This document shows positions 9,568 through 39,334 of a stretch of DNA of 44,786 nucleotides, piece after piece. The notes below the pieces were generated by a model. It was given only the letters and a program-made list of their open reading frames with translations, was not told the DNA's origin and did not search any database. A program made the translations under genes and the position numbers. The stretch is from a phage. Numbering within the stretch: the first letter of the stretch is position 1; each line of letters opens with the position of its first letter. Location of the stretch: NCBI GenBank assembly GCA_012646845.1, contig GCA_012646845.1_4707.2; one strand, written 5' to 3'.

Positions 9568-10041
9568 ATGCCAGTTTCATCCAAACCAAGAAAGAAATCA
9601 GTAGGAAAACCTAAAGCTCAGGAAACAACAGCGATTCGTTGGGACGAGTTACGTGAACCTATCGAAAACTGCGAATTGTTATTAGGCACCCTGGGTGCGG
9701 CTATTTACCAAGCGACACAACCCTGTCGTTTACGATTAACCCAAAACAAGCGTGATGAGTTCGTTGCGTTATCAACAAGTACGAATAAAGATCTGACCGA
9801 ACTTCAAACCGAGTTGACGACGATCAAGAACTCCATTACGCCGATGTATGGTAAAGAAGTCGATGAACAAAGTATTCTGTTACAGTACAACTACGGGATG
9901 TCGTTAATGAATATCCTGGAACGTGCATCCGATATTCTGCGTCCTGACGTTGCACGCCTGAGCCAACTGCGTGTTGAAGGGATGGAGAACCAGATCCGAT
10001 TCGCTAACAGTGTTAAATCTCAAGGAGCCACCGAAGCATGA
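9568..10041 (+). CDS. hypothetical protein (157 aa)
   Basis: ORF track; AGGAG RBS upstream; stop overlaps next start (ATGA). Confidence 0.65.
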   Translation: MPVSSKPRKKSVGKPKAQETTAIRWDELREPIENCELLLGTLGAAIYQATQPCRLRLTQNKRDEFVALSTSTNKDLTELQTELTTIKNSITPMYGKEVDEQSILLQYNYGMSLMNILERASDILRPDVARLSQLRVEGMENQIRFANSVKSQGATEA

Positions 10042-11696
10042 GCGAACAAGAAAAAGAAGTCGTGACGAATCAGGAAGCCATTGAGCCTTCAGAGTCGTCC
10101 GTTGAAACAATGATTCCAGCAAGTGAGGGTAAAGACGAAGCTGTCACTACCGAAGGAGATGTAGCGGCTCCAGAAGCAACCCGTGAAGAAGAACCATCGC
10201 ATCCACCGCTGGTCGATTTCTCGAAGGCGACGATACGTTTCCAATGCGAAGACATTCGTCCTAAGAGTCCGAAGAAAACAAAACGTCAGCCGTTGGTGTT
10301 ACCGCTGTATTCTCCGCGTGTACAGACAGCGTATTACAAGGAATACATCAACGAAGCAATGGATACCGTGCAAGCCATTGTCGCTCAACGCGGTAAACCT
10401 TCGGACGAGCAATTTGATAAATTCAGTAAAGCGGTAGTGCAATCGGTTGCTGATGGGCAATACCAACCGCGTGGGCCAGCTCATGATCGTGCGTTGGAAC
10501 GTAAGGGTAGTCAGTGGACTAACGTACCCGTAGACTCATCGGGTGTTGGTCGTGTTATTCCTGGCATCCCACAACCGAACCATATTCCTGATGATGTCGA
10601 AGCGCCGTTGACAGGAACCGATGCGATCTATTTTGCTATCCGCAATACGAAATCGGGCGCACCTGCGGTAATGCCGTTATGGCATAGCGGTATTAAGCTG
10701 CAGTTCAATCCACCGTCAAATGAACGTGTTGCGATTATGCATGAACGTATCGCACGTGATAAAATCCTGGGTGGACGTGATAGTACCGGTTTCCTGTTTT
10801 CGGCAACCTCGATTATCACCATGAAGCATGCTATCGAATTAGCGTTAGAATGCTGTTACATGGCCAACGTACCGAACCTGGATATCCAGCGTTTGAAAGA
10901 CATTATTCCGGTTACCGATGTTCCAGCGTTATTGTTGAACGTGCTGGTAACCATGTACCCGTACGGCTATCCTTACGTACAGACCTGCTATCAGAATCCA
11001 GAAACCTGCGACTATCGTGTTGAAGATACCGTAAGCTTTGCGAAGCTCTATCAAGTTGACAACAGCGCAATTACCAAACGTATGCGACAGATCATGACCG
11101 AAGGTCCGGTCATGACAGATGAACTTTTGCGTGAGTATGCAAACGAGCTGGGCGAAACAAACTCCCGTACGCTGGATCTGTCTGACAACGGTTCGGTTAT
11201 CATTGAGCTTGAAGTACCGAAGATTTCACGTCAGATTGCCATGGGTGAACGCTGGTTAAGTGATACCCTGGAAGATCTGCGTGATATTCTATCGCGTCCG
11301 TCAATGACCGAAGAAGAGCGTGATCGTGTTATTCGTGAGCGTCAGTTCTATAGCTGGATGCGTCAATATGATGCGTGGATCAAATCGATGCATGTGTCGG
11401 TAAACGGCACCATGCGTCGTGTAAGCGATGCAGATACGGCAACGGTATTAGCACAGCTGTCTCGTGATAGCGACCTTCGTGAACGCTATATCGATGGGTT
11501 GATGCAGTTCATCGGTGATTCGACGATTGCGCTCGCAGCGATGCCTGCCTGGAAATGTCCGAAATGTAATACCGATATTGCTGACAATCTGCGTGACCAG
11601 AAATACTACGATCTGATTGCTTTGGATGTACCCCAGCTTTTTTTTACCCTAAACTCCGTCCAATCTCTTCAGGAGGGGATGGACGCGGTATTCTAA
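10038..11696 (+). CDS. hypothetical protein (552 aa), acidic low-complexity N-terminus
   Basis: ORF track; translationally coupled to upstream gene; T8 run 17 codons before stop. Confidence 0.75.
   Translation: MSEQEKEVVTNQEAIEPSESSVETMIPASEGKDEAVTTEGDVAAPEATREEEPSHPPLVDFSKATIRFQCEDIRPKSPKKTKRQPLVLPLYSPRVQTAYYKEYINEAMDTVQAIVAQRGKPSDEQFDKFSKAVVQSVADGQYQPRGPAHDRALERKGSQWTNVPVDSSGVGRVIPGIPQPNHIPDDVEAPLTGTDAIYFAIRNTKSGAPAVMPLWHSGIKLQFNPPSNERVAIMHERIARDKILGGRDSTGFLFSATSIITMKHAIELALECCYMANVPNLDIQRLKDIIPVTDVPALLLNVLVTMYPYGYPYVQTCYQNPETCDYRVEDTVSFAKLYQVDNSAITKRMRQIMTEGPVMTDELLREYANELGETNSRTLDLSDNGSVIIELEVPKISRQIAMGERWLSDTLEDLRDILSRPSMTEEERDRVIRERQFYSWMRQYDAWIKSMHVSVNGTMRRVSDADTATVLAQLSRDSDLRERYIDGLMQFIGDSTIALAAMPAWKCPKCNTDIADNLRDQKYYDLIALDVPQLFFTLNSVQSLQEGMDAVF
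11639..11645 (+). other. T TTT TTT slippery heptamer (candidate -1 frameshift site)
   Basis: Heptamer is in X_XXY_YYZ register in the 0 frame of 10038..11696; the -1 frame is open from 11597 through 12118. Confidence 0.3.
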
Positions 11697-11788
11697 TCGA
11701 TCCGCGATACGGGTTACACGACGGACAACTTGTTCGTAATGATGAAAAAATCTGGGAATTGCTGTTAGCGCGTAAAGGCGACGGTGGC

Positions 11789-12118
11789 ATGAAACTGAAC
11801 ATCGAAATGGGTATTGCGTACGATACCATGTTTGGCATGTATGATCGTGTTAACGACTGGACGCCGTTGAAATGGGTTGCTCAGCACCCCGCTGAAGATC
11901 CCTGGGACAGATTAGGGATTAAGCCCTTAATCGAGGATTATGTTCGATTCGGTATTAAAGAGTTCATGACGCTGGATGCGTTTTTACAAGCACCGTATCC
12001 TTACGCGCAAACGGTACTCAAAATCGCACAAGACGAACTGCGGAAACGTAGTGCGGTACTGGACGACGATGAGGACAAGTTACGACGAGAAGAAGAACGT
12101 TTACGAAACGGAAAATAA
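11789..12118 (+). CDS. hypothetical protein or frameshift extension of 10038..11696
   Basis: Track ORF begins with TTG at 11759; first ATG at 11789; frame continuous with -1 frame of upstream gene. Confidence 0.45.
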   Translation: MKLNIEMGIAYDTMFGMYDRVNDWTPLKWVAQHPAEDPWDRLGIKPLIEDYVRFGIKEFMTLDAFLQAPYPYAQTVLKIAQDELRKRSAVLDDDEDKLRREEERLRNGK

Positions 12119-12119
12119 A

Positions 12120-12629
12120 ATGGCGAGATTTACCAGTTTGATTGGGTTGGATATTTGGGAAACACCGGCTGACGTTCGGGTTATTCCTGTCAACACCGTC
12201 GGTGTGATGGGGCGTGGTCTTGCCAAGCAGGCAGCTGATCGTGTACCCGGTCTTCTTGAAGCGTACCGTAAGCAATGTCGAGATGGGTTTAAGGTGGGCG
12301 AAGTCGTATCGTATCAACATGGCGATAACGATCAACTCACCTACGTGTTGTTTCCATCAAAATCGGATTGGCGTGAAAGAACACGGCGCGAGTATATCGT
12401 TAACGGTTTACTGGCGTTAAAAGCGTGGTTATTGGAGCTTCAGTTCGAAAGAGACGGCTTCTCATACCACCGTCCGGCTGAACCACTGATTGTCGCAATT
12501 CCTCCGGTTGGTTCTGGTTGCGGTAATATCGGTTACGGACAATCCGAGACAATCCAGCCTCAATGGGTACGCGCACAAATCAAACAGTATCTTGCCACCG
12601 TGCCAAACGTTCATTTCTACTTGTTCTAA
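12120..12629 (+). CDS. macro-domain protein (putative ADP-ribose binding/hydrolase)
   Basis: ATG at 12120; motifs VIPVNTVGVMGRGLAKQAADRVPG and IAIPPVGSGCGNIGYG resemble macro-domain glycine-rich loops. Confidence 0.7.
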   Translation: MARFTSLIGLDIWETPADVRVIPVNTVGVMGRGLAKQAADRVPGLLEAYRKQCRDGFKVGEVVSYQHGDNDQLTYVLFPSKSDWRERTRREYIVNGLLALKAWLLELQFERDGFSYHRPAEPLIVAIPPVGSGCGNIGYGQSETIQPQWVRAQIKQYLATVPNVHFYLF

Positions 12630-12639
12630 TGCAAAGATA

Positions 12640-12687
12640 GCATAACCCTCCTCCTGGCCTGAACCAGGAGGAAGGGTGTTTTTATGC
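12640..12687. terminator. Bidirectional terminator hairpin between convergent genes
   Basis: GCATAA-CCCTCCTCCTGG-CCTGAA-CCAGGAGGAAGGGTG-TTTTTATGC; perfect extended inverted repeat. Confidence 0.65.
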
Positions 12688-14196
12688 CGCGAAGGTTGGC
12701 TTGTTGCTGGCTTCCCAGGCGGTAGCACCGGTGTCGAAATCGGCATGTTCTGTTACGTTGGAGACGTTCCAACCGGAGATATCCTGGTTGAACGCCTTTG
12801 CGTCCTCAAACATGCTCCGCATCGAAACAATATTAGACATGTTCCAGCTACCGATGTTCTGGTTGAACACAACAGCACTACGGAACATGCGATCGGCATT
12901 CGTTACGTTCGACATATCCCAACCGATGACGTTAGGATCGTTGAACTTCGAACAGCCTAAGAACATCGAGTTGGTGCTGGTGACAGCAGTAGGCAGCTCT
13001 GCCGGGACCGACGTCAGGTTGCTAGCACGTTCGAATGACCAGTTACGGACATCATTCTGTTTCCCGAAGCTCAGAACCGCGAGCAGCGCGTTACCGCCGA
13101 GGTTGATTTTCAGGGATTTAAGTCCGCTCTCTTTCCAACCAATCTCGATGCGACCGGCTTGCGTAACGTCGATGCCCGTATTCGCACCTTCGACAACGTC
13201 TACCTTCACATTGTCGTACGAGAGACGATACCAGAGTTCTGGGTCGACGCCGCCGGTAAGAGGAATATCACCATCGCCCAATGGCACGTCAAACGTGTCG
13301 GAGATAACAGAAAGATCCAGCGCACCCGGCTGCACGGTAGCGGTGAAGTAGGTGAAGTCCTCTGGCTCGGTCACGACCTCATGGTAGCGAAGATACACAT
13401 CGCCAGCCCAAGATTCCGTTTCGGCGTAATCCGTGCTAAGATGCACTGCCTTGTATCCGTCATCAAGGTCGTGCACGGCGATTACATACGCATATTCGAG
13501 CAACGTCGCGAACTCAGTGCGGGTGGTTTCATCGTACCCACCCGCTGAGACCAGACGGTCGATAATGTCGTTACGTAACGCATCATCGATAGCGGCACCG
13601 ATTTCCATCGTCGCCACGTTGTGCTTCGCGACGATCTCATCCCAATCTAACGACAGCGACAGCAGACTCAATGAGGCAAGAGAGTCGCTGTTGTGTAAAT
13701 AGTTGAGTGTATAAAGGTCGGTTTTAGCGATGATGGTCACCAGGTCCAACGTATCGTTGGCGACGGTGAACTTGAGTTTACCTGCCCATACGTAGGAGGC
13801 ATCCGCTGCGTTAAGTTCGAGTTCCTTAACGCCGCTGTCTTCAAAGGTCACTGCGGTTTGCAGATCGGCTTCCAAGAAGTCAACGGTTTTGTCTAACGAC
13901 ACCCCATACCGTGCAGCTAACTGATCGACCACAGCGCCGATGGTGGTATCTGCGTTAACGATGAAGCGCAGAGGAAGACCCAGGAAGTTCTTGGTAAGAT
14001 CTCGGCGAACATAGACCAGGGTTTGTTCGTTGAAGTAGGGGCTACCCTCTAACGGTTTGATGCGGACACTCACCGCATCTGTAGCGTCGTCCTTAGCGAC
14101 AAACTCAAACGTCACGTCCTGTTCGGTCAGCGTAAGCTGGTTCTTACTGTTAACCAGTTCCAGCAACTCATCTTTCCAGTGTTGTAATAACTTCAT
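12682..14196 (-). CDS. putative receptor-binding/tail fibre protein with C-terminal DUF285 (BspA-like) repeats
   Basis: C-terminal repeats GWDMSNVTNADRMF / FNQNIGSWNMSNIVSMRSMF / FNQDISGWNVSNVT; N-terminal domain shared with 15364..17976 and 23321..23848. Confidence 0.75.
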   Translation of the reverse strand: MKLLQHWKDELLELVNSKNQLTLTEQDVTFEFVAKDDATDAVSVRIKPLEGSPYFNEQTLVYVRRDLTKNFLGLPLRFIVNADTTIGAVVDQLAARYGVSLDKTVDFLEADLQTAVTFEDSGVKELELNAADASYVWAGKLKFTVANDTLDLVTIIAKTDLYTLNYLHNSDSLASLSLLSLSLDWDEIVAKHNVATMEIGAAIDDALRNDIIDRLVSAGGYDETTRTEFATLLEYAYVIAVHDLDDGYKAVHLSTDYAETESWAGDVYLRYHEVVTEPEDFTYFTATVQPGALDLSVISDTFDVPLGDGDIPLTGGVDPELWYRLSYDNVKVDVVEGANTGIDVTQAGRIEIGWKESGLKSLKINLGGNALLAVLSFGKQNDVRNWSFERASNLTSVPAELPTAVTSTNSMFLGCSKFNDPNVIGWDMSNVTNADRMFRSAVVFNQNIGSWNMSNIVSMRSMFEDAKAFNQDISGWNVSNVTEHADFDTGATAWEASNKPTFAA

Positions 14197-14203
14197 TTTG
14201 GCC

Positions 14204-14380
14204 TCATTCTAAGCGTGGCATTGAGGGAACCTCGTGCCGGTGTTTTCGGAATTGTGTGTCGATAACCTCACGAAGCTTCAGGGCATCGTGAAGAGTCGAC
14301 GAGTTATACAACGTGAGCGTTACCGTCATGCGGGTGCGTTCACGCGTGTATTCTTTCCGACTGATGATGTCCGTATGCTG
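14204..14380 (-). pseudogene. Partial duplicate of the 3' half of gene 14389..14763
   Basis: Frame encodes ...TVTLTLYNSSTLHDALKLREVIDTQFRKHRHEVPSMPRLE*, paralogous to ...TVTLELFNKSTWVDAYRLREVIDGQFRKHRHEVPSMPKK... of the adjacent gene; DNA-level similarity evident. Confidence 0.45.
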
Positions 14381-14388
14381 TTATGCTA

Positions 14389-14763
14389 TTAATGTTCGTT
14401 CCAGATGGCATCTTCCGGTGGAACAATAGGATCTTTCTTCGGCATTGATGGCACTTCATGACGATGTTTACGGAACTGTCCGTCGATAACTTCACGAAGC
14501 CGGTACGCATCAACCCACGTTGATTTATTGAACAGCTCCAACGTCACAGTTAACCGCGTTCTTGACATTGAATAGCTTTTCTTTGCAATCAAATCGGGAT
14601 AATTCAGTTGAGCGAACCATGCCCGTATTTGTGCTTCGGTAAAAGCGATGCTGTAATAACTAAGTTTACCGTCATTAAAATCGTGCGCGTGGGTGTAACG
14701 TCCAGCGTAACGCCAAACAAGATGCACATTCAGATCGATCCATGGTGGGGTGGTATCAGCCAT
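14389..14763 (-). CDS. hypothetical protein (124 aa)
   Basis: ORF track. Confidence 0.65.
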   Translation of the reverse strand: MADTTPPWIDLNVHLVWRYAGRYTHAHDFNDGKLSYYSIAFTEAQIRAWFAQLNYPDLIAKKSYSMSRTRLTVTLELFNKSTWVDAYRLREVIDGQFRKHRHEVPSMPKKDPIVPPEDAIWNEH

Positions 14764-15363: not shown

Positions 15364-17976
15364 TTAAGCGTCTGGTGTAAAATCAAAAGGAACGTCCGTA
15401 CGAATGATATCATAACGTTTTCCTAGGAAATAGAACTCTTCGGGAACCTGACCGGGAATGATGCTATCGCCGATGAACTGTGGGTATGCCCAGATGTACT
15501 GAGTGAGTCCTTCGAACATATCCAGGTTATTTGCGTGGTTACCCATGATACGTTTCCAGAGTTCGCGTTTATACGGTGTTTTGACATCGAACCCATAAAG
15601 CGGTGCGAGGTCTTCGCCTGGAACAAACCCCAGGTAATAGTGGATCTGACTAACCGGGAACCCAAGCGTGTCTCGCGGAATGGTGATCGCTCGCTCAGCC
15701 TTGGTGACATGCGTCTCAATAATCCAGTCGTAGCACTCCGAATAGAACCGATCGAATTTCTCTGGATTGTACCACGCTTTGGGAAGATTCAGTTTCTCTG
15801 TGAACGCGTTCGACATGATCGTCGGCAAGAACGGAAGAACGCCGGTTTTGATCTGCGTGTATTTCGATTTTACCCGATTGACCAGATTCCAGCAAGCAGA
15901 GCCGAGCTGATCGTTGCAGAACTCAACGTACAGATCGTAATCCCCACCCGATAATGGATTATTAATGTCGCCGATATCGGCGGCGTATTTGTTGGGGTAT
16001 CGGTTATTGAAAGCCAGTTTGGTTTGGTAATCGTAGATACACGGTTTGTTGTTCGCCGTGTTGATCCACCACCAGGGTTCACCTACTTGTACACAAATGT
16101 CTTGGACATGCGGGTAGATGATATCAGCAAACGCGGTTAACACATCCCCTAACCACGTCATCGCATGTTGGTTGCATGGCGACAACAACCAAGACGGCGG
16201 CGTATATCCGGTTGCTGCGATGTTTCCTTCCCAATCCTGCTGCGCCCATTCGAACGGGCATGCGGTACTCATCAATTCGTAACTTAAACTGATGGTGATA
16301 GAGAAATGATGTTTTGCAGCATATGCGGCGAACGCTTCATGCCACGCGATACAGGGTGGATTTAATACATCCGTGGTGTTCACCAGTAACTTACCCGCAC
16401 TTGGCGTCCAGACAGTATCGTAGAAATGCGACATGCCAACATAATGCACTAATTCATCCTGATACCCTGCATAAACCAGGTTTTCAAATACGCGCTCCGG
16501 CGTGATGTTGTAATGGTCATCGTAAGCGGTTATCGCACGAAGTTCGTGTGGTGTACAGTGGTGGCGACTAACCGTCATTTCCTGATACACCCCATCGATA
16601 GGAAGAATCTCGAGGGTTAAACCGAGGTCGATTGGCGTTTCCAGGTAGGTCGTTTCAGTCGCATCTTCCTTATAATGTCGAGAACTCATACTGAACATCA
16701 GCGACGTGACCGATTCGAGTTCGATAGGTTCGTCAGCATAGAACCCCGCCATCGCGTCGTTGAAATCGATCGTTACGATTGCGCTTGTACCGTCTTCAGA
16801 GACGTCGGTCGCATATCGGGTTAATGAGATATACTGACGGCTATCGTCTTTGTGTACGATGGTTAGAACCGGCGGGTGTTCGGTATCTGCAAAGTTACGC
16901 TGATCGCCAGTAAATGTGATCTTCGCTTTAAAGATCAAACCGAGCAACGACGTCATTGGATCATACGCAACACAACCGTGATCCAGCGTATCCGTTGTCC
17001 GCCATTCTATCCCGACCAACCCGTTAGCGGTATGGCATCGCATATACGCATTAAGTACCATGTCTTCACTGACAACCGCGAAGTTCTCTGTTGACTGACC
17101 GTTGATAATCCAATACATCGGTTGCCAGAGGTTACGCGTACCTTTTGCGTAGCGGTAGGTTGGTGCGCCTTTAGGGTTGCCGTTATTGAGATGGAATACG
17201 GCAGTACCTTGGTAATGATCGTTCGTGTTAATCGGAACAGTGTACGCGTCGCCGAGGTCCGTACGTTCGACCTTCGTGACAGTTGCGTTTTCAAACAGCC
17301 TGCGTAGTGTAGGAAGACCAATATCATCAGGCGCGTTTTCTCGACGAATTGCGTCCGCGATGCGATGGGCTAGGGCGGGGTAAATGGTCTCACCCTGCTG
17401 TAAGTTTGCAAGACCTACAAAGCGATCGGGGTTGATACCGGCAATCAATAACTCAACATCGCCCCTCGTTCTATCATCATGGAGGTATTTCAGTCCAGTA
17501 AGATCGAGGTGTCGAATTAACGACAACAGATTGTACTTACGGTTTTCAACAGTCAGTACAAGATCACCTGCCCAAACCAAACTTCCCTCATCCACCATTA
17601 CTCTAACGGATTGGCGGCCTGTGGTAGACGTTGTTGTCGTTTTATTTAATTGTCCTTGTAGGAAGTCGGTTGCGAGGTCAAAGGCAACGCCGTAACGGTC
17701 AGCGACCGCCTGCATGATTTCACGTAACTGGGTATCTTCTTCAATGATGATCTTGACAGGTATTCCCAAGAACGCTTTGGCGAGGTCTCGCTTAACCATC
17801 GAGACGAATACGGATTTGTAATATCGGCCTCCATCTTTCCCTTTAAAAAGAATGGAGGTTGTTTCGGGCGACGATAGAACACGTGCAAATTCAACATCGT
17901 CGGAAGTAAGAGAAAGTCCGTTTTTCTCGTTGACCAATCTTAGTATTTCATTTTGCGCGGTTTCATGCAACTTCAT
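15364..17976 (-). CDS. large putative receptor-binding protein/tailspike (870 aa)
   Basis: N-terminal domain (VKRDLAKAFLGIPVKII) shared with 12682..14196 and 23321..23848; long Trp/Tyr-rich C-terminal domain. Confidence 0.75.
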   Translation of the reverse strand: MKLHETAQNEILRLVNEKNGLSLTSDDVEFARVLSSPETTSILFKGKDGGRYYKSVFVSMVKRDLAKAFLGIPVKIIIEEDTQLREIMQAVADRYGVAFDLATDFLQGQLNKTTTTSTTGRQSVRVMVDEGSLVWAGDLVLTVENRKYNLLSLIRHLDLTGLKYLHDDRTRGDVELLIAGINPDRFVGLANLQQGETIYPALAHRIADAIRRENAPDDIGLPTLRRLFENATVTKVERTDLGDAYTVPINTNDHYQGTAVFHLNNGNPKGAPTYRYAKGTRNLWQPMYWIINGQSTENFAVVSEDMVLNAYMRCHTANGLVGIEWRTTDTLDHGCVAYDPMTSLLGLIFKAKITFTGDQRNFADTEHPPVLTIVHKDDSRQYISLTRYATDVSEDGTSAIVTIDFNDAMAGFYADEPIELESVTSLMFSMSSRHYKEDATETTYLETPIDLGLTLEILPIDGVYQEMTVSRHHCTPHELRAITAYDDHYNITPERVFENLVYAGYQDELVHYVGMSHFYDTVWTPSAGKLLVNTTDVLNPPCIAWHEAFAAYAAKHHFSITISLSYELMSTACPFEWAQQDWEGNIAATGYTPPSWLLSPCNQHAMTWLGDVLTAFADIIYPHVQDICVQVGEPWWWINTANNKPCIYDYQTKLAFNNRYPNKYAADIGDINNPLSGGDYDLYVEFCNDQLGSACWNLVNRVKSKYTQIKTGVLPFLPTIMSNAFTEKLNLPKAWYNPEKFDRFYSECYDWIIETHVTKAERAITIPRDTLGFPVSQIHYYLGFVPGEDLAPLYGFDVKTPYKRELWKRIMGNHANNLDMFEGLTQYIWAYPQFIGDSIIPGQVPEEFYFLGKRYDIIRTDVPFDFTPDA

Positions 17977-20075: not shown

Positions 20076-20660
20076 TTACACAGCTGTAGGAAGTTCAGGC
20101 CAATCGATATTTGGTGCTGTTGATGTGTCAACGCGGTGCAGAGCCACCCGATACTTTTTCCATGCTGTCAGCATCGACACCTCTTCTTCCGTTGCGATCT
20201 CCAGATCCACAGCATCCTGAAGTGGCGCAATACGATCATTCGCTGCCTGCATCAGACTGTTTTTTGTTTCTTCCGCCTCCCGGACATGGGATTGTTTTTC
20301 CGCATCTGTATCTTTCACCCAGGTTGTTCCGTCCCACTTCTGAAACTCTCCTTCCGGGGATAACCAAGTAGTATTTTCTGGTAACGGACCGAGTTCAGAA
20401 ATAAATAACGCGTCGCCGGAAGCCACATCATAGACGGTTTTACCCCGATGGTCTTCAACAATATACCACGATTCATTTTCACTGTTAAAAACTGCCACAA
20501 AGTCAGCAGGAATTTCCGGTGGGGCGATATCTGTAGAATTAGCTGGTAGTCCCGTATGCGGTGGAATATATGCGTCGCCTTCACCAATAAACTCATTGGT
20601 TCCGGCCAGCAGATTATAAATTTTTATGGTTTGTGGTTCATCACTCATTCTGAATGCCAT
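20076..20660 (-). CDS. tail fibre assembly protein (chaperone)
   Basis: Start overlaps fibre stop (TAATG); sequence resembles Tfa/gpG-type chaperones; position immediately downstream of fibre gene. Confidence 0.8.
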
Positions 20661-23314
20661 TATGCAAGCCTCACGATGTAGTTAAATGCGATGTTTTTGA
20701 CGGTGTTTTCCGCGTTACCCGCGGCGTTAACGGTGATGGTGTGTCCATGCGATCCAATCGCAACCGAGTGCGTATGCGCACCAATACCTACAGTATGTGC
20801 ATGTGCACCGGCACTCGCGGCTGTACCGGACAATGAGTGACTATGAGCGCCAGCAGAAGAAGTGTTGACATCGTATTTAGCATAATCAGGCGACCCACTT
20901 CCCGGAGTACCACTGGTGCCACCTGCGACAAATCTCATCGAGTGGGTGTGTGCTCCAGCCGTGTTTGTGGAACCACTCAGACTGTGCGTATGCGCCCCGG
21001 TGTTATTCGTGGTTTTAGTGCCGTAATCAAACGACGATGTGGTTTTCGTCCCCAAATCCGTACCGGATGCGCTGGCGCTATGGTTGTGCGATTTAATGCC
21101 GTCCTGTTCCTGAGACAATACAGCACGACCACTGGCAGGTTTGCCCTTAATCGTCCAGCCACGCATATCAGGAATAACGCCTGACGGATAAGCCACTGCA
21201 AGTTTCGGGTATACAGATTTGTCAAAAGTCTGCCCTTGCATCAGAGCATAACCAGACGGAACGGTATCTGAAGGCCATGGAATAGGCGTACCAACAGGCA
21301 ACGCTGAACCGCCATCCGAACCCGCATCTTTGGTTGGTATAACGATGTTCGCCGAGCCGTCGAACTCAATACCGTTGATTGTGACAGCCGTTTGCAATTT
21401 CGTGGCTGTCGCAGCGTTACCCGTCGTATTCTGATTACCAACCGCATTGACGCCCGGTAATGCAATATCCGCTGTTCCGTCAAAGGCAACACCACCGATT
21501 TTACGTGCGGTTTGTAGCTTGGTTGCACTAGCGGCGTTACCGCTGGTATTCTGGGTGCCAGCTTTGTTAACACCGGGGAGATCGATGTTAGCAGAACCAT
21601 CGAAGCTGACGCCACCTATCGTTCTTGCGGTAGCGAGTTTAGCTGCTGTGGCTGCATTATTACCCACTTTCAGCCAATCATCCCATGGGCCATCCTGGCC
21701 GTTCCATGCTGCCGTTAAACTACGTACGTAAATATTGCCGGTACGTACAGTGTAACGTTGCGTTCCACCGAATTGTCCGGCAGGGAGCACTTCAAGGTAA
21801 CCTGCGGCATTTGCTTCAGGGAAATTGTGGGCGACGTCCGCGTTCGTTGATACTGGTTTAGACCAAATACCCACGGACGCTTCAACCGGACCGTAAGTAT
21901 TCAGATTTGCGTCGGTGGGGAGCTGTCCTCGAAAACGCTGGAATTGTGTTGCCGATAACCCCAACGTTGTTTGCATGCTTTCAATGCTGGATTGCTGCAG
22001 TAACGTCCGTGCTGTCGACGTAATCACGGTAAGCGCAACTTTATTAACACCGGTGAAATACGGGAGTTTGTCTGCTGATGTCACTAAACCTGAAAAGGCG
22101 GTCAGTAATTCGTTAAGGGGTTGCTTCCCAGCTAACGCATTTGTTACCGTCGTTGCGAAATTAGGATCGCTTCCTATAGCTCGAGCCAGCTTATTAAGCG
22201 TATTTAGCGTCGCTGGTGACGAGTCGATCAGTGCCGTGATCGCACGCATCACAAATTCCGTGTTGGCTATCTGTCGACTGCTATCGTTAACTGCTGCGGT
22301 GGGCGCTGCTGGCGTACCAGTGAATACAGGGCTATTAAGATCCGCCTTGAGGGCGATGAGGCGTTTAAGCGCTTCAACATCAACTTTCAGGTTTTCCCAT
22401 CCGATGAGAGAACCATCACCGTTGGCATGATAACGGTTGTACCAGAAGTCACCGTTAACGCCAAAAAAGAATATACATTTCTCTTCGTTTTGTGGACCGG
22501 AACTATTTCGTGATGAGTCGATATATTTGATTTCAATAAGACCGCTAAACACCACCCCTGGGATTATATTGTTGTCTCCAGCTGACTGTGATACCTGGTA
22601 CATCCCCGGGGTTGCGGCTTTAACCCATGTTAAGAATTCTGTTACTCCAGCGGTACCGCTAAAATTCTTAACGTCGGTAAGTATCGCCCCATAACCGAAC
22701 ATACCGGGTAGAGCCACTCGTCCGCTGGTACGATCACGAATATCTGTCGCAACAACAGGCAATTGTTTACGAACGGCATTAACCGCTTTAGGCGTGGCCG
22801 ATTTTGTCTCGTCGTCGCTATCGGTTTCATTACTTAGAATAGTTAAACCGCGTGTAGCAGTAGTTGCATCAGGAAGAAATGCGTTATCCAACACCTTAAG
22901 CTGTATTGCACTCGTATTACTAACAACGACATGCACCTGACAGTTAAGAACGCTGGTTGCGCCTTCGGCAGGCGTAGGCTTATATCTTTCTGGCGCACTG
23001 CAGACGGCAATCAGAACACCTTGGTCGTCATACAGACCGATCTCACGTACCCAGAACCCACCTTGACTAGCAGGAATAATACCCTCAACGATAATCCTGG
23101 TTGTACTATCGCCATCCGTATGGACATTGGAAACTTCCCCACGATAAACTTCATGGACAAGCGCTGTTTGACTGGTGGTTGGGGTTGGGATCGAACCACT
23201 ACCATCGCCAACGGCAAAGTGTGTGATTTTTAGTTTCTTACCGTCAGGAAGTAACGCTGCAGCGATACGTTCTGCGCCTTTATCGGTAACGACCGTTTTA
23301 TATGCTGTACTCAT
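20660..23314 (-). CDS. tail fibre protein, P2 gpH-like N-terminus, internal repeats, His-rich C-terminus
   Basis: N-terminus [21 protein letters not shown]...[20 protein letters not shown] resembles gpH-type collar domain; ~39-aa tandem repeats ([28 protein letters not shown]); C-terminal GAHTHS repeats. Confidence 0.9.

Positions 23315-36279: not shown

Positions 36280-39334
<3,055 letters not shown>

What the first reader, a model, noticed from the sequence alone, without database searches (positions are those of the whole stretch)
12120..12629. Phage-encoded macro-domain protein
The 169-aa protein carries macro-domain-like glycine-rich loops (VIPVNTVGVMGRGLAKQAADRVPG; IAIPPVGSGCGNIGYG). 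Macro domains bind or hydrolyse ADP-ribose derivatives; in a virulent phage this is a plausible counter to ADP-ribosylation-based host defence or a processor of NAD-derived signalling molecules. The NAD-dependent ligase in the same window is a second NAD-linked function.
Basis: partly seen in the sequence, partly recalled or inferred. Interest (0 to 1): 0.6.

Follow-up and report, generated by a model that had tools for sequence, protein, structure and literature searches.

The report
Known phage anti-DarT macrodomain (AdfM)
This gene encodes a small enzyme that most likely strips ADP-ribose tags, placed by the bacterial DarT2 toxin, off the phage's own DNA; a 2026 paper named this family AdfM and listed the near-identical Goslar gene, so the reading is correct but not new.

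Summary
The ORF at 12120..12629 (+), 169 aa, is real and is a macrodomain. It passes Pfam Macro (24.9 bits, cutoff 22). Its best sequence and structure matches are the DarG antitoxin macrodomains: profile against PDB 5m31/5m3i at E about 6e-42, against 4e-14 for TARG1; predicted fold against 5m3e at TM 0.79/0.88. Both DarG catalytic residues are invariant (N25, K81).

The window is a jumbo phage about 93% identical in DNA to the nucleus-forming E. coli phage Goslar. The protein is 98% identical to Goslar gp083 and 31% identical, end to end, to phiKZ gp104.

Morgan et al. (Cell Rep 2026, PMC13309987) showed that phiKZ gp104 ("AdfM") is imported into the phage nucleus, removes DarT2-made ADP-ribose from thymidine in DNA, and protects the phage from DarTG2 defence. 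They list Goslar gp83 as a member, by alignment only.

It is an orphan: it has no DarT-binding domain, and no darT gene occurs in the window. The proposed link to the NAD-dependent ligase, 24 kb away, has no support.

Only small differences are left: two loop insertions specific to the Goslar clade, and a start codon that is probably mis-annotated in RefSeq. Verdict: already known, low interest.

The parts
12120..12629 (+). adfM-like gene: stand-alone DarG2-type macrodomain, 169 aa plus stop codon
   Evidence: ORF and translation; Pfam Macro above cutoff; DarG models; PDB DarG; 98.2% identical to Goslar gp083 and 31% to phiKZ gp104; AF2 model pLDDT 86.8, best fold match 5m3e
12189..12224 (+). 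Loop 1, residues 24-35 (VNTVGVMGRGLA), the first ADP-ribose-binding glycine-rich loop. It contains catalytic Asn25 (codon AAC, 12192-12194), equivalent to T. aquaticus DarG N22 and phiKZ AdfM N23
   Evidence: V24, N25, G28, M30, G31, G33 and A35 are invariant in 15 sequences including phiKZ gp104 and Taq DarG. The N23A mutation reduces phiKZ AdfM activity (PMC13309987)
12360..12362 (+). Codon AAA for Lys81 in the FPSK motif, equivalent to the DarG catalytic K80 and phiKZ K78
   Evidence: K81 and W84 are invariant in alignment A1; K80 is marked as an active-site residue in 5M3E
12501..12557 (+). Loop 2, residues 128-146 (PPVGSGCGNIGYGQSETIQ), the second glycine-rich, phosphate-binding loop. It is extended by about 10 residues in the Goslar clade compared with DarG (PPLGAGNGGLPW)
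   Evidence: P128, G131, G133 and G135 are invariant in A2; the insertion is visible in A1 and against 5m31/5m3i; residues 135-140 have pLDDT below 50
12441..12482 (+). Goslar-clade insertion, roughly residues 108-121 (QFERDGFSYHRPAE), between the long helix and the strand that leads into loop 2
   Evidence: Gapped in the bacterial and metagenomic relatives P0008-P0014 and in the Taq DarG fragment; phiKZ gp104 carries a shorter, unrelated segment here and P0012/P0015 partial ones; mean pLDDT 58 for residues 111-120
12649..12672 (.). GC-rich hairpin (TCCTCCTGG-loop-CCAGGAGGA) followed by a T-run, a likely transcription terminator between the convergent genes
   Evidence: Terminator scan; the equivalent site is annotated as a putative terminator in Goslar
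9568..12118 (+). Three co-directional upstream genes of unknown function (157, 552 and 119 aa). With the macro gene they form a four-gene block conserved in the Goslar lineage. This is context and is not shown to be functionally linked
   Evidence: Same order and sizes in Goslar gp080-gp083 and in the 47%-identical relative L004; no Pfam or PADLOC hits; PHROGs assigns them only to families of unknown function

Best explanation
[quoted passage not shown] AdfM is an orphan, antitoxin-like, DarG2-type macrodomain. The host DarT2 toxin of DarTG2 defence systems transfers ADP-ribose from NAD+ onto thymidine in TNTC motifs of single-stranded phage DNA. AdfM binds the ADP-ribose in its two glycine-rich loops and hydrolyses the thymidine-ADP-ribose bond using the conserved Asn25 and Lys81, which restores unmodified DNA so that replication and genome packaging can proceed. 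By analogy with phiKZ, PhiPA3 and Asesino, it is probably imported into the phage nucleus, where the DNA is. Shown here: the ORF, the macro fold, the specific DarG-type affinity, the conserved catalytic residues, the orphan status, and near-identity to Goslar gp83. Shown by others for the 31%-identical phiKZ gp104: the enzymatic activity, nuclear import, and protection from DarTG2. Inferred for this protein: all three of those functional properties.
For: Pfam Macro above the gathering score. NCBIfam antitoxin_DarG E 1.1e-22 and PADLOC DarG E 4.8e-22, covering only the macro part of those models. The family profile hits the DarG macrodomains 5m31/5m3i at E about 6e-42 across the whole domain, against 4e-14 for TARG1. 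The AF2 model (pLDDT 86.8, pTM 0.85) best matches T. aquaticus DarG with ADP-ribose, 5m3e, at TM 0.79/0.88 and rmsd 1.9 A, then Mtb DarG, then TARG1. N25 and K81 are invariant and align with Taq N22/K80 and phiKZ N23/K78. The window is collinear with Goslar at about 93% DNA identity, and the protein is 98.2% identical to Goslar gp083, which PMC13309987 lists among AdfM proteins. It aligns end to end with phiKZ gp104 at 31% identity, E 9e-25, and both fall in phrog_335. The biochemistry, genetics and localisation of phiKZ, PhiPA3 and Asesino AdfM are in PMC13309987, and PicA-dependent import of gp104 is in PMC11087766. No DarT occurs among 61 window ORFs. TNTC motifs are abundant and not depleted, 1611 observed against 1552 +/- 38 expected, so the genome offers many DarT2 targets.
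Against: Neither the Goslar protein nor this variant has been tested; it appears in the paper only in an alignment. Identity to the characterised phiKZ gp104 is only about 31%, no higher than to many unannotated stand-alone macrodomains in metagenomes, so independent acquisition and a different substrate preference are possible. The flanking genes show no detectable homology to those flanking phiKZ gp104. The Goslar clade has two insertions, one of them in the phosphate-binding loop and modelled with low confidence. Nuclear import signals are phage-specific and cannot be read from sequence.
Confidence: 0.8

Rival explanations
1. It is a general ADP-ribose-derivative hydrolase: a Poa1p-like ADP-ribose-1''-phosphatase, an O-acetyl-ADP-ribose deacetylase, or a TARG1-like protein or RNA de-ADP-ribosylase. 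Under this reading it acts on protein, RNA or small-molecule substrates, for example to counter protein- or RNA-targeting ADP-ribosyltransferase defences or to reverse the phage's own ADP-ribosylation, and does not act on DarT2-modified DNA.
For: The Goslar annotation cites cd02901 Macro_Poa1p_like. phrog_335 is labelled 'phosphatase' and several phage homologs are named 'Appr-1-p processing'. TARG1 and Poa1p are significant fold matches. Loop 2 differs from canonical DarG.
Against: DarG macrodomains outscore TARG1 by about 28 orders of magnitude in the profile search and lead the fold ranking. The DarG-specific equivalog model is the best NCBIfam hit at E 1e-22, while the generic ADP-ribose-binding model reaches only E 0.083. 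The 'phosphatase' and 'Appr-1-p' names are legacy family labels and are not assay results. The characterised family member acts on ADPr-DNA.
Confidence: 0.12
2. It degrades or sequesters NAD-derived immune signalling molecules, such as cyclic ADP-ribose isomers from Thoeris-type systems.
For: Macrodomains bind ADP-ribose-like ligands. Comparative genomics has proposed that phage macro domains process variant ADPr-derived signals (PMC9503650).
Against: No similarity to known anti-Thoeris proteins was found. The PADLOC, NCBIfam and PDB best hits are all DarG. The hydrolytic N and K residues typical of DNA- or protein-linked ADPr removal are conserved. phiKZ AdfM mutants are sensitised specifically to DarTG2-carrying hosts.
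Confidence: 0.04
3. It is a catalytically dead ADP-ribose reader, or a direct DarT-binding inhibitor, not an eraser enzyme.
For: Loop 2 is extended and poorly modelled. Other anti-DarT factors, AdfA and AdfB, act as direct inhibitors.
Against: Both catalytic residues and all glycine-loop positions are invariant. The protein lacks the DarT-binding C-terminal domain of DarG2. The phiKZ homolog is catalytic and is sensitive to N23A.
Confidence: 0.03

Closest known systems
AdfM (anti-DarT factor macro) of chimalliviruses: phiKZ gp104, PhiPA3 gp108, Asesino gp217, Goslar gp83 (Morgan et al., Cell Rep 2026, PMC13309987)
   Same: It is 98.2% identical to Goslar gp83, which is listed as AdfM. It is a stand-alone macrodomain of about 160-170 aa in a nucleus-forming jumbo phage, aligns end to end with phiKZ gp104 (31%, E 9e-25), has the same catalytic Asn and Lys, and has no partner toxin.
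   Different: The Goslar-clade protein has not been tested experimentally. It has two insertions (about residues 108-121 and 136-146) that are absent, or much shorter, in phiKZ gp104. Its flanking genes are not detectably homologous to those of phiKZ. Its host is E. coli, not Pseudomonas or Erwinia.
DarG2 antitoxin macrodomain of DarTG2 toxin-antitoxin systems (T. aquaticus 5M31/5M3E, M. tuberculosis 5M3I, Thermosipho DarTG 7OMU)
   Same: These are the best sequence and structure matches, with the same fold, the same N22/K80-type active site and the same G-x-G-x-G loop.
   Different: It lacks the C-terminal DarT-binding domain (only positions 7-146 of the 338-position model are matched; 80.8 bits against the 250-bit cutoff). 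No adjacent darT gene is present. It is encoded by a phage as a counter-defence, not by a bacterium as an antitoxin.
AdfN (T4 gp30.3 and other phage NADAR proteins; PMC11825919)
   Same: Same strategy: a phage-borne orphan antitoxin-like enzyme that erases DarT-made ADP-ribose from DNA.
   Different: It has an unrelated fold (NADAR against macro) and the opposite specificity: AdfN acts on DarT1 guanosine-ADPr and does not counter DarTG2.
Human TARG1 (C6orf130; 4J5Q/4J5R/4J5S)
   Same: It is the next-closest macrodomain class by fold and profile, and the catalytic lysine sits at the equivalent position.
   Different: It is much more distant (E 4e-14 against 6e-42, 17-20% identity). The depositors name it O-acetyl-ADP-ribose deacetylase 1 / terminal ADP-ribose glycohydrolase 1. 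No substrate was tested here.

Membership tests
Macro domain (Pfam PF01661) | Score above the curated gathering threshold | tested here: met
   24.9 bits against a cutoff of 22, covering residues 23-141 and profile positions 3-113 of 118
Macro domain (Pfam PF01661) | Three-layer alpha/beta/alpha macro fold | tested here: met
   AF2 model pLDDT 86.8 and pTM 0.85; 219 PDB matches at E<=1e-3, and the top 50 listed are macrodomain structures or macro-fold proteins and scaffolds
DarG2-type macrodomain (DNA ADP-ribosyl glycohydrolase) | Closer to DarG macrodomains than to any other macro class | tested here: met
   Profile E 6e-42 for 5m31/5m3i against 4e-14 for TARG1; Foldseek rank 1-4 are DarG; NCBIfam DarG E 1e-22 against E 0.083 for the next model; PADLOC DarG
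DarG2-type macrodomain (DNA ADP-ribosyl glycohydrolase) | Catalytic Asn (Taq N22) and Lys (Taq K80) conserved | tested here: met
   N25 and K81 are invariant columns that align with the Taq DarG and phiKZ gp104 residues; the residues are defined in PMC13309987 Fig. 1
DarG2 antitoxin (full-length, NCBIfam NF048014) | C-terminal DarT-binding domain; score above the equivalog cutoff | tested here: not met
   The protein has 169 aa and matches only model positions 7-146 of 338; 80.8 bits against a cutoff of 250. It is therefore not a DarG antitoxin proper.
DarG2 antitoxin (full-length, NCBIfam NF048014) | Encoded next to a darT toxin gene | tested here: not met
   No DarT hit among the neighbours or among 61 ORFs covering the window
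AdfM (chimallivirus anti-DarT factor macro) | Encoded by a chimallivirus (nucleus-forming jumbo phage) | tested here: met
   The window is collinear with Goslar at about 93% nt identity. [quoted passage not shown] No nucleus-shell gene was looked for in the window itself.
AdfM (chimallivirus anti-DarT factor macro) | Stand-alone macrodomain homologous to phiKZ gp104, or identical to a listed member | tested here: met
   98.2% identical to Goslar gp083, which is listed as AdfM; 31% identity, E 9e-25, residues 1-162 against 1-155 of gp104; shared phrog_335
AdfM (chimallivirus anti-DarT factor macro) | Conserved genomic neighbourhood with phiKZ gp104 (supports vertical orthology) | tested here: inconclusive
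   BLASTP finds no similarity between the upstream genes and gp100, gp101 or gp103, and they fall in different PHROGs. These phages are very divergent, so this neither supports nor excludes orthology.
AdfM (chimallivirus anti-DarT factor macro) | Removes DarT2-made ADP-ribose from thymidine in ssDNA | not testable with these tools
   Shown only for phiKZ gp104
AdfM (chimallivirus anti-DarT factor macro) | Imported into the phage nucleus | not testable with these tools
   Shown for phiKZ, PhiPA3 and Asesino. The import recognition surface is phage-specific and has no sequence motif.
AdfM (chimallivirus anti-DarT factor macro) | Required for phage growth on DarTG2-carrying hosts | not testable with these tools
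   Shown for phiKZ and PhiPA3 deletion mutants. No paper in the searchable library tests Goslar against DarTG.

The most novel reading that the evidence does not exclude
The Goslar-clade AdfM may be a functional variant and not a plain ortholog. Its roughly 10-residue extension of the phosphate-binding loop and its roughly 14-residue insertion before it could change substrate range, for example towards E. coli-type DarT2 sequence contexts or other nucleic-acid ADP-ribosylation. Alternatively, because the insertions lie downstream of the gp104 segment (residues 66-115) that carries phiKZ import specificity, they could form the Goslar-specific surface recognised by its nuclear import machinery. 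It may also have been acquired independently of the Pseudomonas-phage AdfM.
Probability: 0.12. Interest if true: 0.4.

Novelty: already known. Interest (0 to 1): 0.15.

Why it matters
The family matters. It shows that the protein shell of the phage nucleus does not fully exclude DNA-modifying host toxins, and that nucleus-forming jumbo phages also import a co-opted antitoxin enzyme to erase the damage. That story was published in April 2026 and names the Goslar ortholog, so this window adds only a further, near-identical family member from an E. coli/Salmonella-associated Goslar relative. It also adds a probable correction to the RefSeq start codon and a note on clade-specific loop insertions. 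What remains useful is practical: Goslar-type AdfM is untested, and E. coli would be a convenient system in which to test it.

Tried and rejected
(1) Synteny with phiKZ as evidence for orthology. The three upstream genes show no BLASTP similarity to phiKZ gp100, gp101 or gp103 and belong to different PHROGs, so this is inconclusive. NOXIFER_72, cited in the Goslar annotation as similar to gp082, is not adjacent to the Noxifer macro gene, NOXIFER_105.

(2) An apparent 70%-identity repeat at a constant offset of about 1118 nt, including a piece inside the macro ORF. Self-BLAST found no repeat. The hits were to locus L004, which is bundled in the same FASTA file. This was an artefact of my script.

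(3) A search for a cognate DarT toxin in the window found none.

(4) A functional link to the NAD-dependent ligase. The ligase is real, but it is 24 kb away on the other strand, and no evidence connects the two genes.

(5) DarT2 motif avoidance. TNTC is not depleted, 1611 observed against 1552 +/- 38 expected, so the phage does not escape by losing target sites.

(6) The word-indexed homolog search returned only 15 proteins. The exhaustive HMMER search returned 2945 representatives at E<=1e-3, but these carry no annotation, so I built no phylogeny to separate phage from bacterial lineages.

(7) The Sharanji jumbo-phage paper mentions Goslar and DarTG but is unrelated to this gene.

Full report
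**Observation**

The ORF at 12120..12629 on the + strand is present. It begins with ATG one base after the TAA of the upstream gene and encodes 169 aa. The second has one residue dropped: the sequence reads LIVAIPPVGSGCGNIGYG.

The open frame continues upstream to ATG 11976 (217 aa), and Goslar RefSeq uses an ATG 51 nt upstream (186 aa). Three results favour 12120 as the start:
- It aligns Met1-to-Met1 with phiKZ gp104.
- Relatives of 85%, 98% and 47% identity are called at 169 aa.
- A distant relative shows the same tight stop-start junction.

**What it is**

Every profile library agrees on a macrodomain, and specifically a DarG-type one:
- Pfam Macro scores 24.9 bits against a cutoff of 22.
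- NCBIfam antitoxin_DarG gives E 1.1e-22, matching only the macro portion (positions 7-146 of 338) and scoring far below the 250-bit equivalog cutoff.
- PADLOC DarG gives E 4.8e-22.
- PHROGs places it in phrog_335, labelled 'phosphatase', a legacy Appr-1-p label.
- In the PDB, the single sequence finds the T. aquaticus and M. tuberculosis DarG macrodomains (E 8.5e-15 and 2.5e-11).
- A 13-sequence family profile finds those same structures at E about 6e-42 across the whole domain. The next class, human TARG1, reaches only 4e-14.

An AlphaFold2 model built on that alignment is confident (mean pLDDT 86.8, pTM 0.85). Its best Foldseek match is 5m3e, Taq DarG bound to ADP-ribose, at TM 0.79/0.88 and rmsd 1.9 A. 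Mtb DarG, the Thermosipho DarTG fusion and TARG1 follow.

I aligned the protein with phiKZ gp104, a Taq DarG fragment and twelve other relatives. The invariant columns include N25 and K81. These correspond to the DarG catalytic residues N22 and K80, and to phiKZ N23 and K78. The glycine positions of both loops are also invariant.

**Where it is**

The window is collinear with the E. coli jumbo phage vB_EcoM_Goslar at about 93% DNA identity. Goslar is a nucleus-forming phage. The protein is 98.2% identical to Goslar gp083, which RefSeq already names 'macro domain-containing protein'.

Weaker homologs of about 28-35% identity occur in 183 phage records. Most are phiKZ-like jumbo phages of Pseudomonas, Erwinia, Salmonella and Klebsiella, including phiKZ gp104.

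The gene is the last of four co-directional genes, of about 157, 552, 119 and 169 aa. The block is followed by a GC-rich hairpin terminator at 12649-12672. The same block is conserved in a relative whose macro protein is only 47% identical.

No DarT-like toxin is encoded next to the gene or anywhere among 61 window ORFs. The protein also lacks DarG's C-terminal DarT-binding domain. It is therefore an orphan antitoxin-like enzyme and not part of a toxin-antitoxin pair.

**What is already known**

[quoted passage not shown] Their findings:
- Purified phiKZ AdfM removes ADP-ribose from a DarT2-modified TNTC oligonucleotide, and the N23A mutation impairs this.
- It rescues E. coli from DarT2 toxicity.
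- AdfM-deleted phiKZ and PhiPA3 lose up to six logs of titre on DarTG2-expressing hosts.
- Phage DNA becomes ADP-ribosylated and genome packaging fails.
- GFP fusions of the phiKZ, PhiPA3 and Asesino proteins accumulate in the phage nucleus.

Earlier work showed that gp104 import depends on PicA and on a phage-specific surface patch (PMC11087766).

Goslar gp83 (YP_009820768.1) appears in their Figure 1B alignment as an AdfM, but no experiment on it is reported. I found no paper in the searchable library that tests Goslar against DarTG.

**Mechanism**

The most likely mechanism has five steps:
1. The host DarT2 uses NAD+ to ADP-ribosylate thymidines in ssDNA.
2. Some DarT2 reaches the phage DNA despite the nuclear shell.
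3. AdfM, probably concentrated in the nucleus, binds the ADP-ribose through its two glycine-rich loops.
4. It cleaves the base-ribose bond using Asn25 and Lys81.
5. Replication and packaging then proceed.

The window contains 1611 TNTC motifs, against 1552 +/- 38 expected from shuffles. The phage therefore does not avoid the target motif, and an eraser enzyme would have plenty of substrate.

For this protein, the fold, the active site, the DarG affinity and the orphan status are shown here. The enzymatic activity, the localisation and the protective role are inferred from a 31%-identical homolog and from the authors' own family assignment. I put confidence in this explanation at about 0.8.

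**Differences and caveats**

- The Goslar clade carries an insertion of about 14 residues at 108-121. Its second loop is extended by about 10 residues (GSGCGNIGYGQSETIQ against GAGNGGLPW in Taq DarG). Both regions are modelled with low confidence.
- Identity to phiKZ gp104 is no higher than to many unannotated stand-alone macrodomains in metagenomes.
- The flanking genes are not detectably homologous between Goslar and phiKZ.
- Independent acquisition, or a shifted substrate range, therefore cannot be excluded.

**Rivals**

- A generic Appr-1-p, O-acetyl-ADPr or protein-ADPr hydrolase (0.12). It rests mainly on legacy labels and is outweighed by the DarG-specific scores.
- A degrader of NAD-derived immune signals (0.04). 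It has no positive evidence.
- A non-catalytic reader or inhibitor (0.03). It is contradicted by the conserved active site.

The macrodomain call and the proposed counter to ADP-ribosylation defence are both supported, and they can now be sharpened to DNA thymidine de-ADP-ribosylation against DarTG2. The NAD-dependent ligase is real: it is a 691-aa LigA-type enzyme at 36978..39053 on the minus strand. It lies 24 kb away and is mechanistically unrelated.

**Verdict**

This is a correct reading of a gene whose family function has been published and whose nearest ortholog is named in that paper. It is already known and of low interest (0.15). What remains open is the untested Goslar-clade variant with its loop insertions.

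**An artefact resolved along the way**

The off-diagonal BLAST hits at 70% identity were matches to locus L004, which is stored in the same file. They do not reflect an internal repeat.

Noticed in passing
window 12651-14373: A 1.72-kb insertion relative to Goslar, where the two flanks are only about 30 bp apart, lies immediately downstream of the macro gene's terminator. It carries a 504-aa gene (12682..14196, minus strand) with an N-terminal DUF7941 and a C-terminal DUF285 repeat domain. It also carries a 41-aa remnant ORF (14204..14329, minus strand) that duplicates the C-terminal part of the neighbouring gp084-like gene (14389..14763, minus strand). This looks like a footprint of cassette gain by recombination.
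   Followed up: partly
window 12682..14196 (-), 15364..17976 (-) and a third ORF not located: Three window proteins share the DUF7941 N-terminal domain. The 870-aa protein combines it with NCTSP_N and a 'non-contractile tail sheath protein' TIM barrel, and the 504-aa protein combines it with DUF285. This suggests a shared N-terminal anchor with swappable C-terminal modules, as seen in tail or receptor-binding proteins.
   Followed up: no
window 12069-12119; Goslar NC_048170 92868-92918: Goslar RefSeq annotates gp083 as 186 aa, starting 51 nt upstream and overlapping gp082. Alignment with phiKZ gp104 and with the 169-aa relatives indicates that the ATG at window 12120 is the true start.
   Followed up: yes
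window 20089-21298: A segment of about 1.2 kb in the tail-fibre and tail-fibre-assembly region is 85-88% identical to side-tail-fibre and assembly genes of about 40 other E. coli phage records of roughly 31-50 kb (for example phage Turner and PhiR29_1). This suggests horizontal exchange of the receptor-binding tip between this jumbo phage and unrelated phages.
   Followed up: no
protein P0001: A 99%-identical copy of the macro protein, called from the upstream ATG as 217 aa, is deposited as a hypothetical protein of Salmonella enterica serovar Muenchen on an 809-bp contig. Goslar-like phage DNA therefore appears to be present in a Salmonella sequencing project.
   Followed up: no
window, ORFs not individually located: Four ORFs hit Sigma70_r4_2, and several hit Myb or HTH DNA-binding domains. 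One ORF each hits PADLOC PDC-S48, mad2, a homing endonuclease (NUMOD1) and a type II methyltransferase. The batch scan reports counts only, so I did not assign coordinates.
   Followed up: no
whole window: The DarT2 target motif TNTC is not depleted: 1611 observed against 1552 +/- 38 expected from dinucleotide-preserving shuffles.
   Followed up: yes
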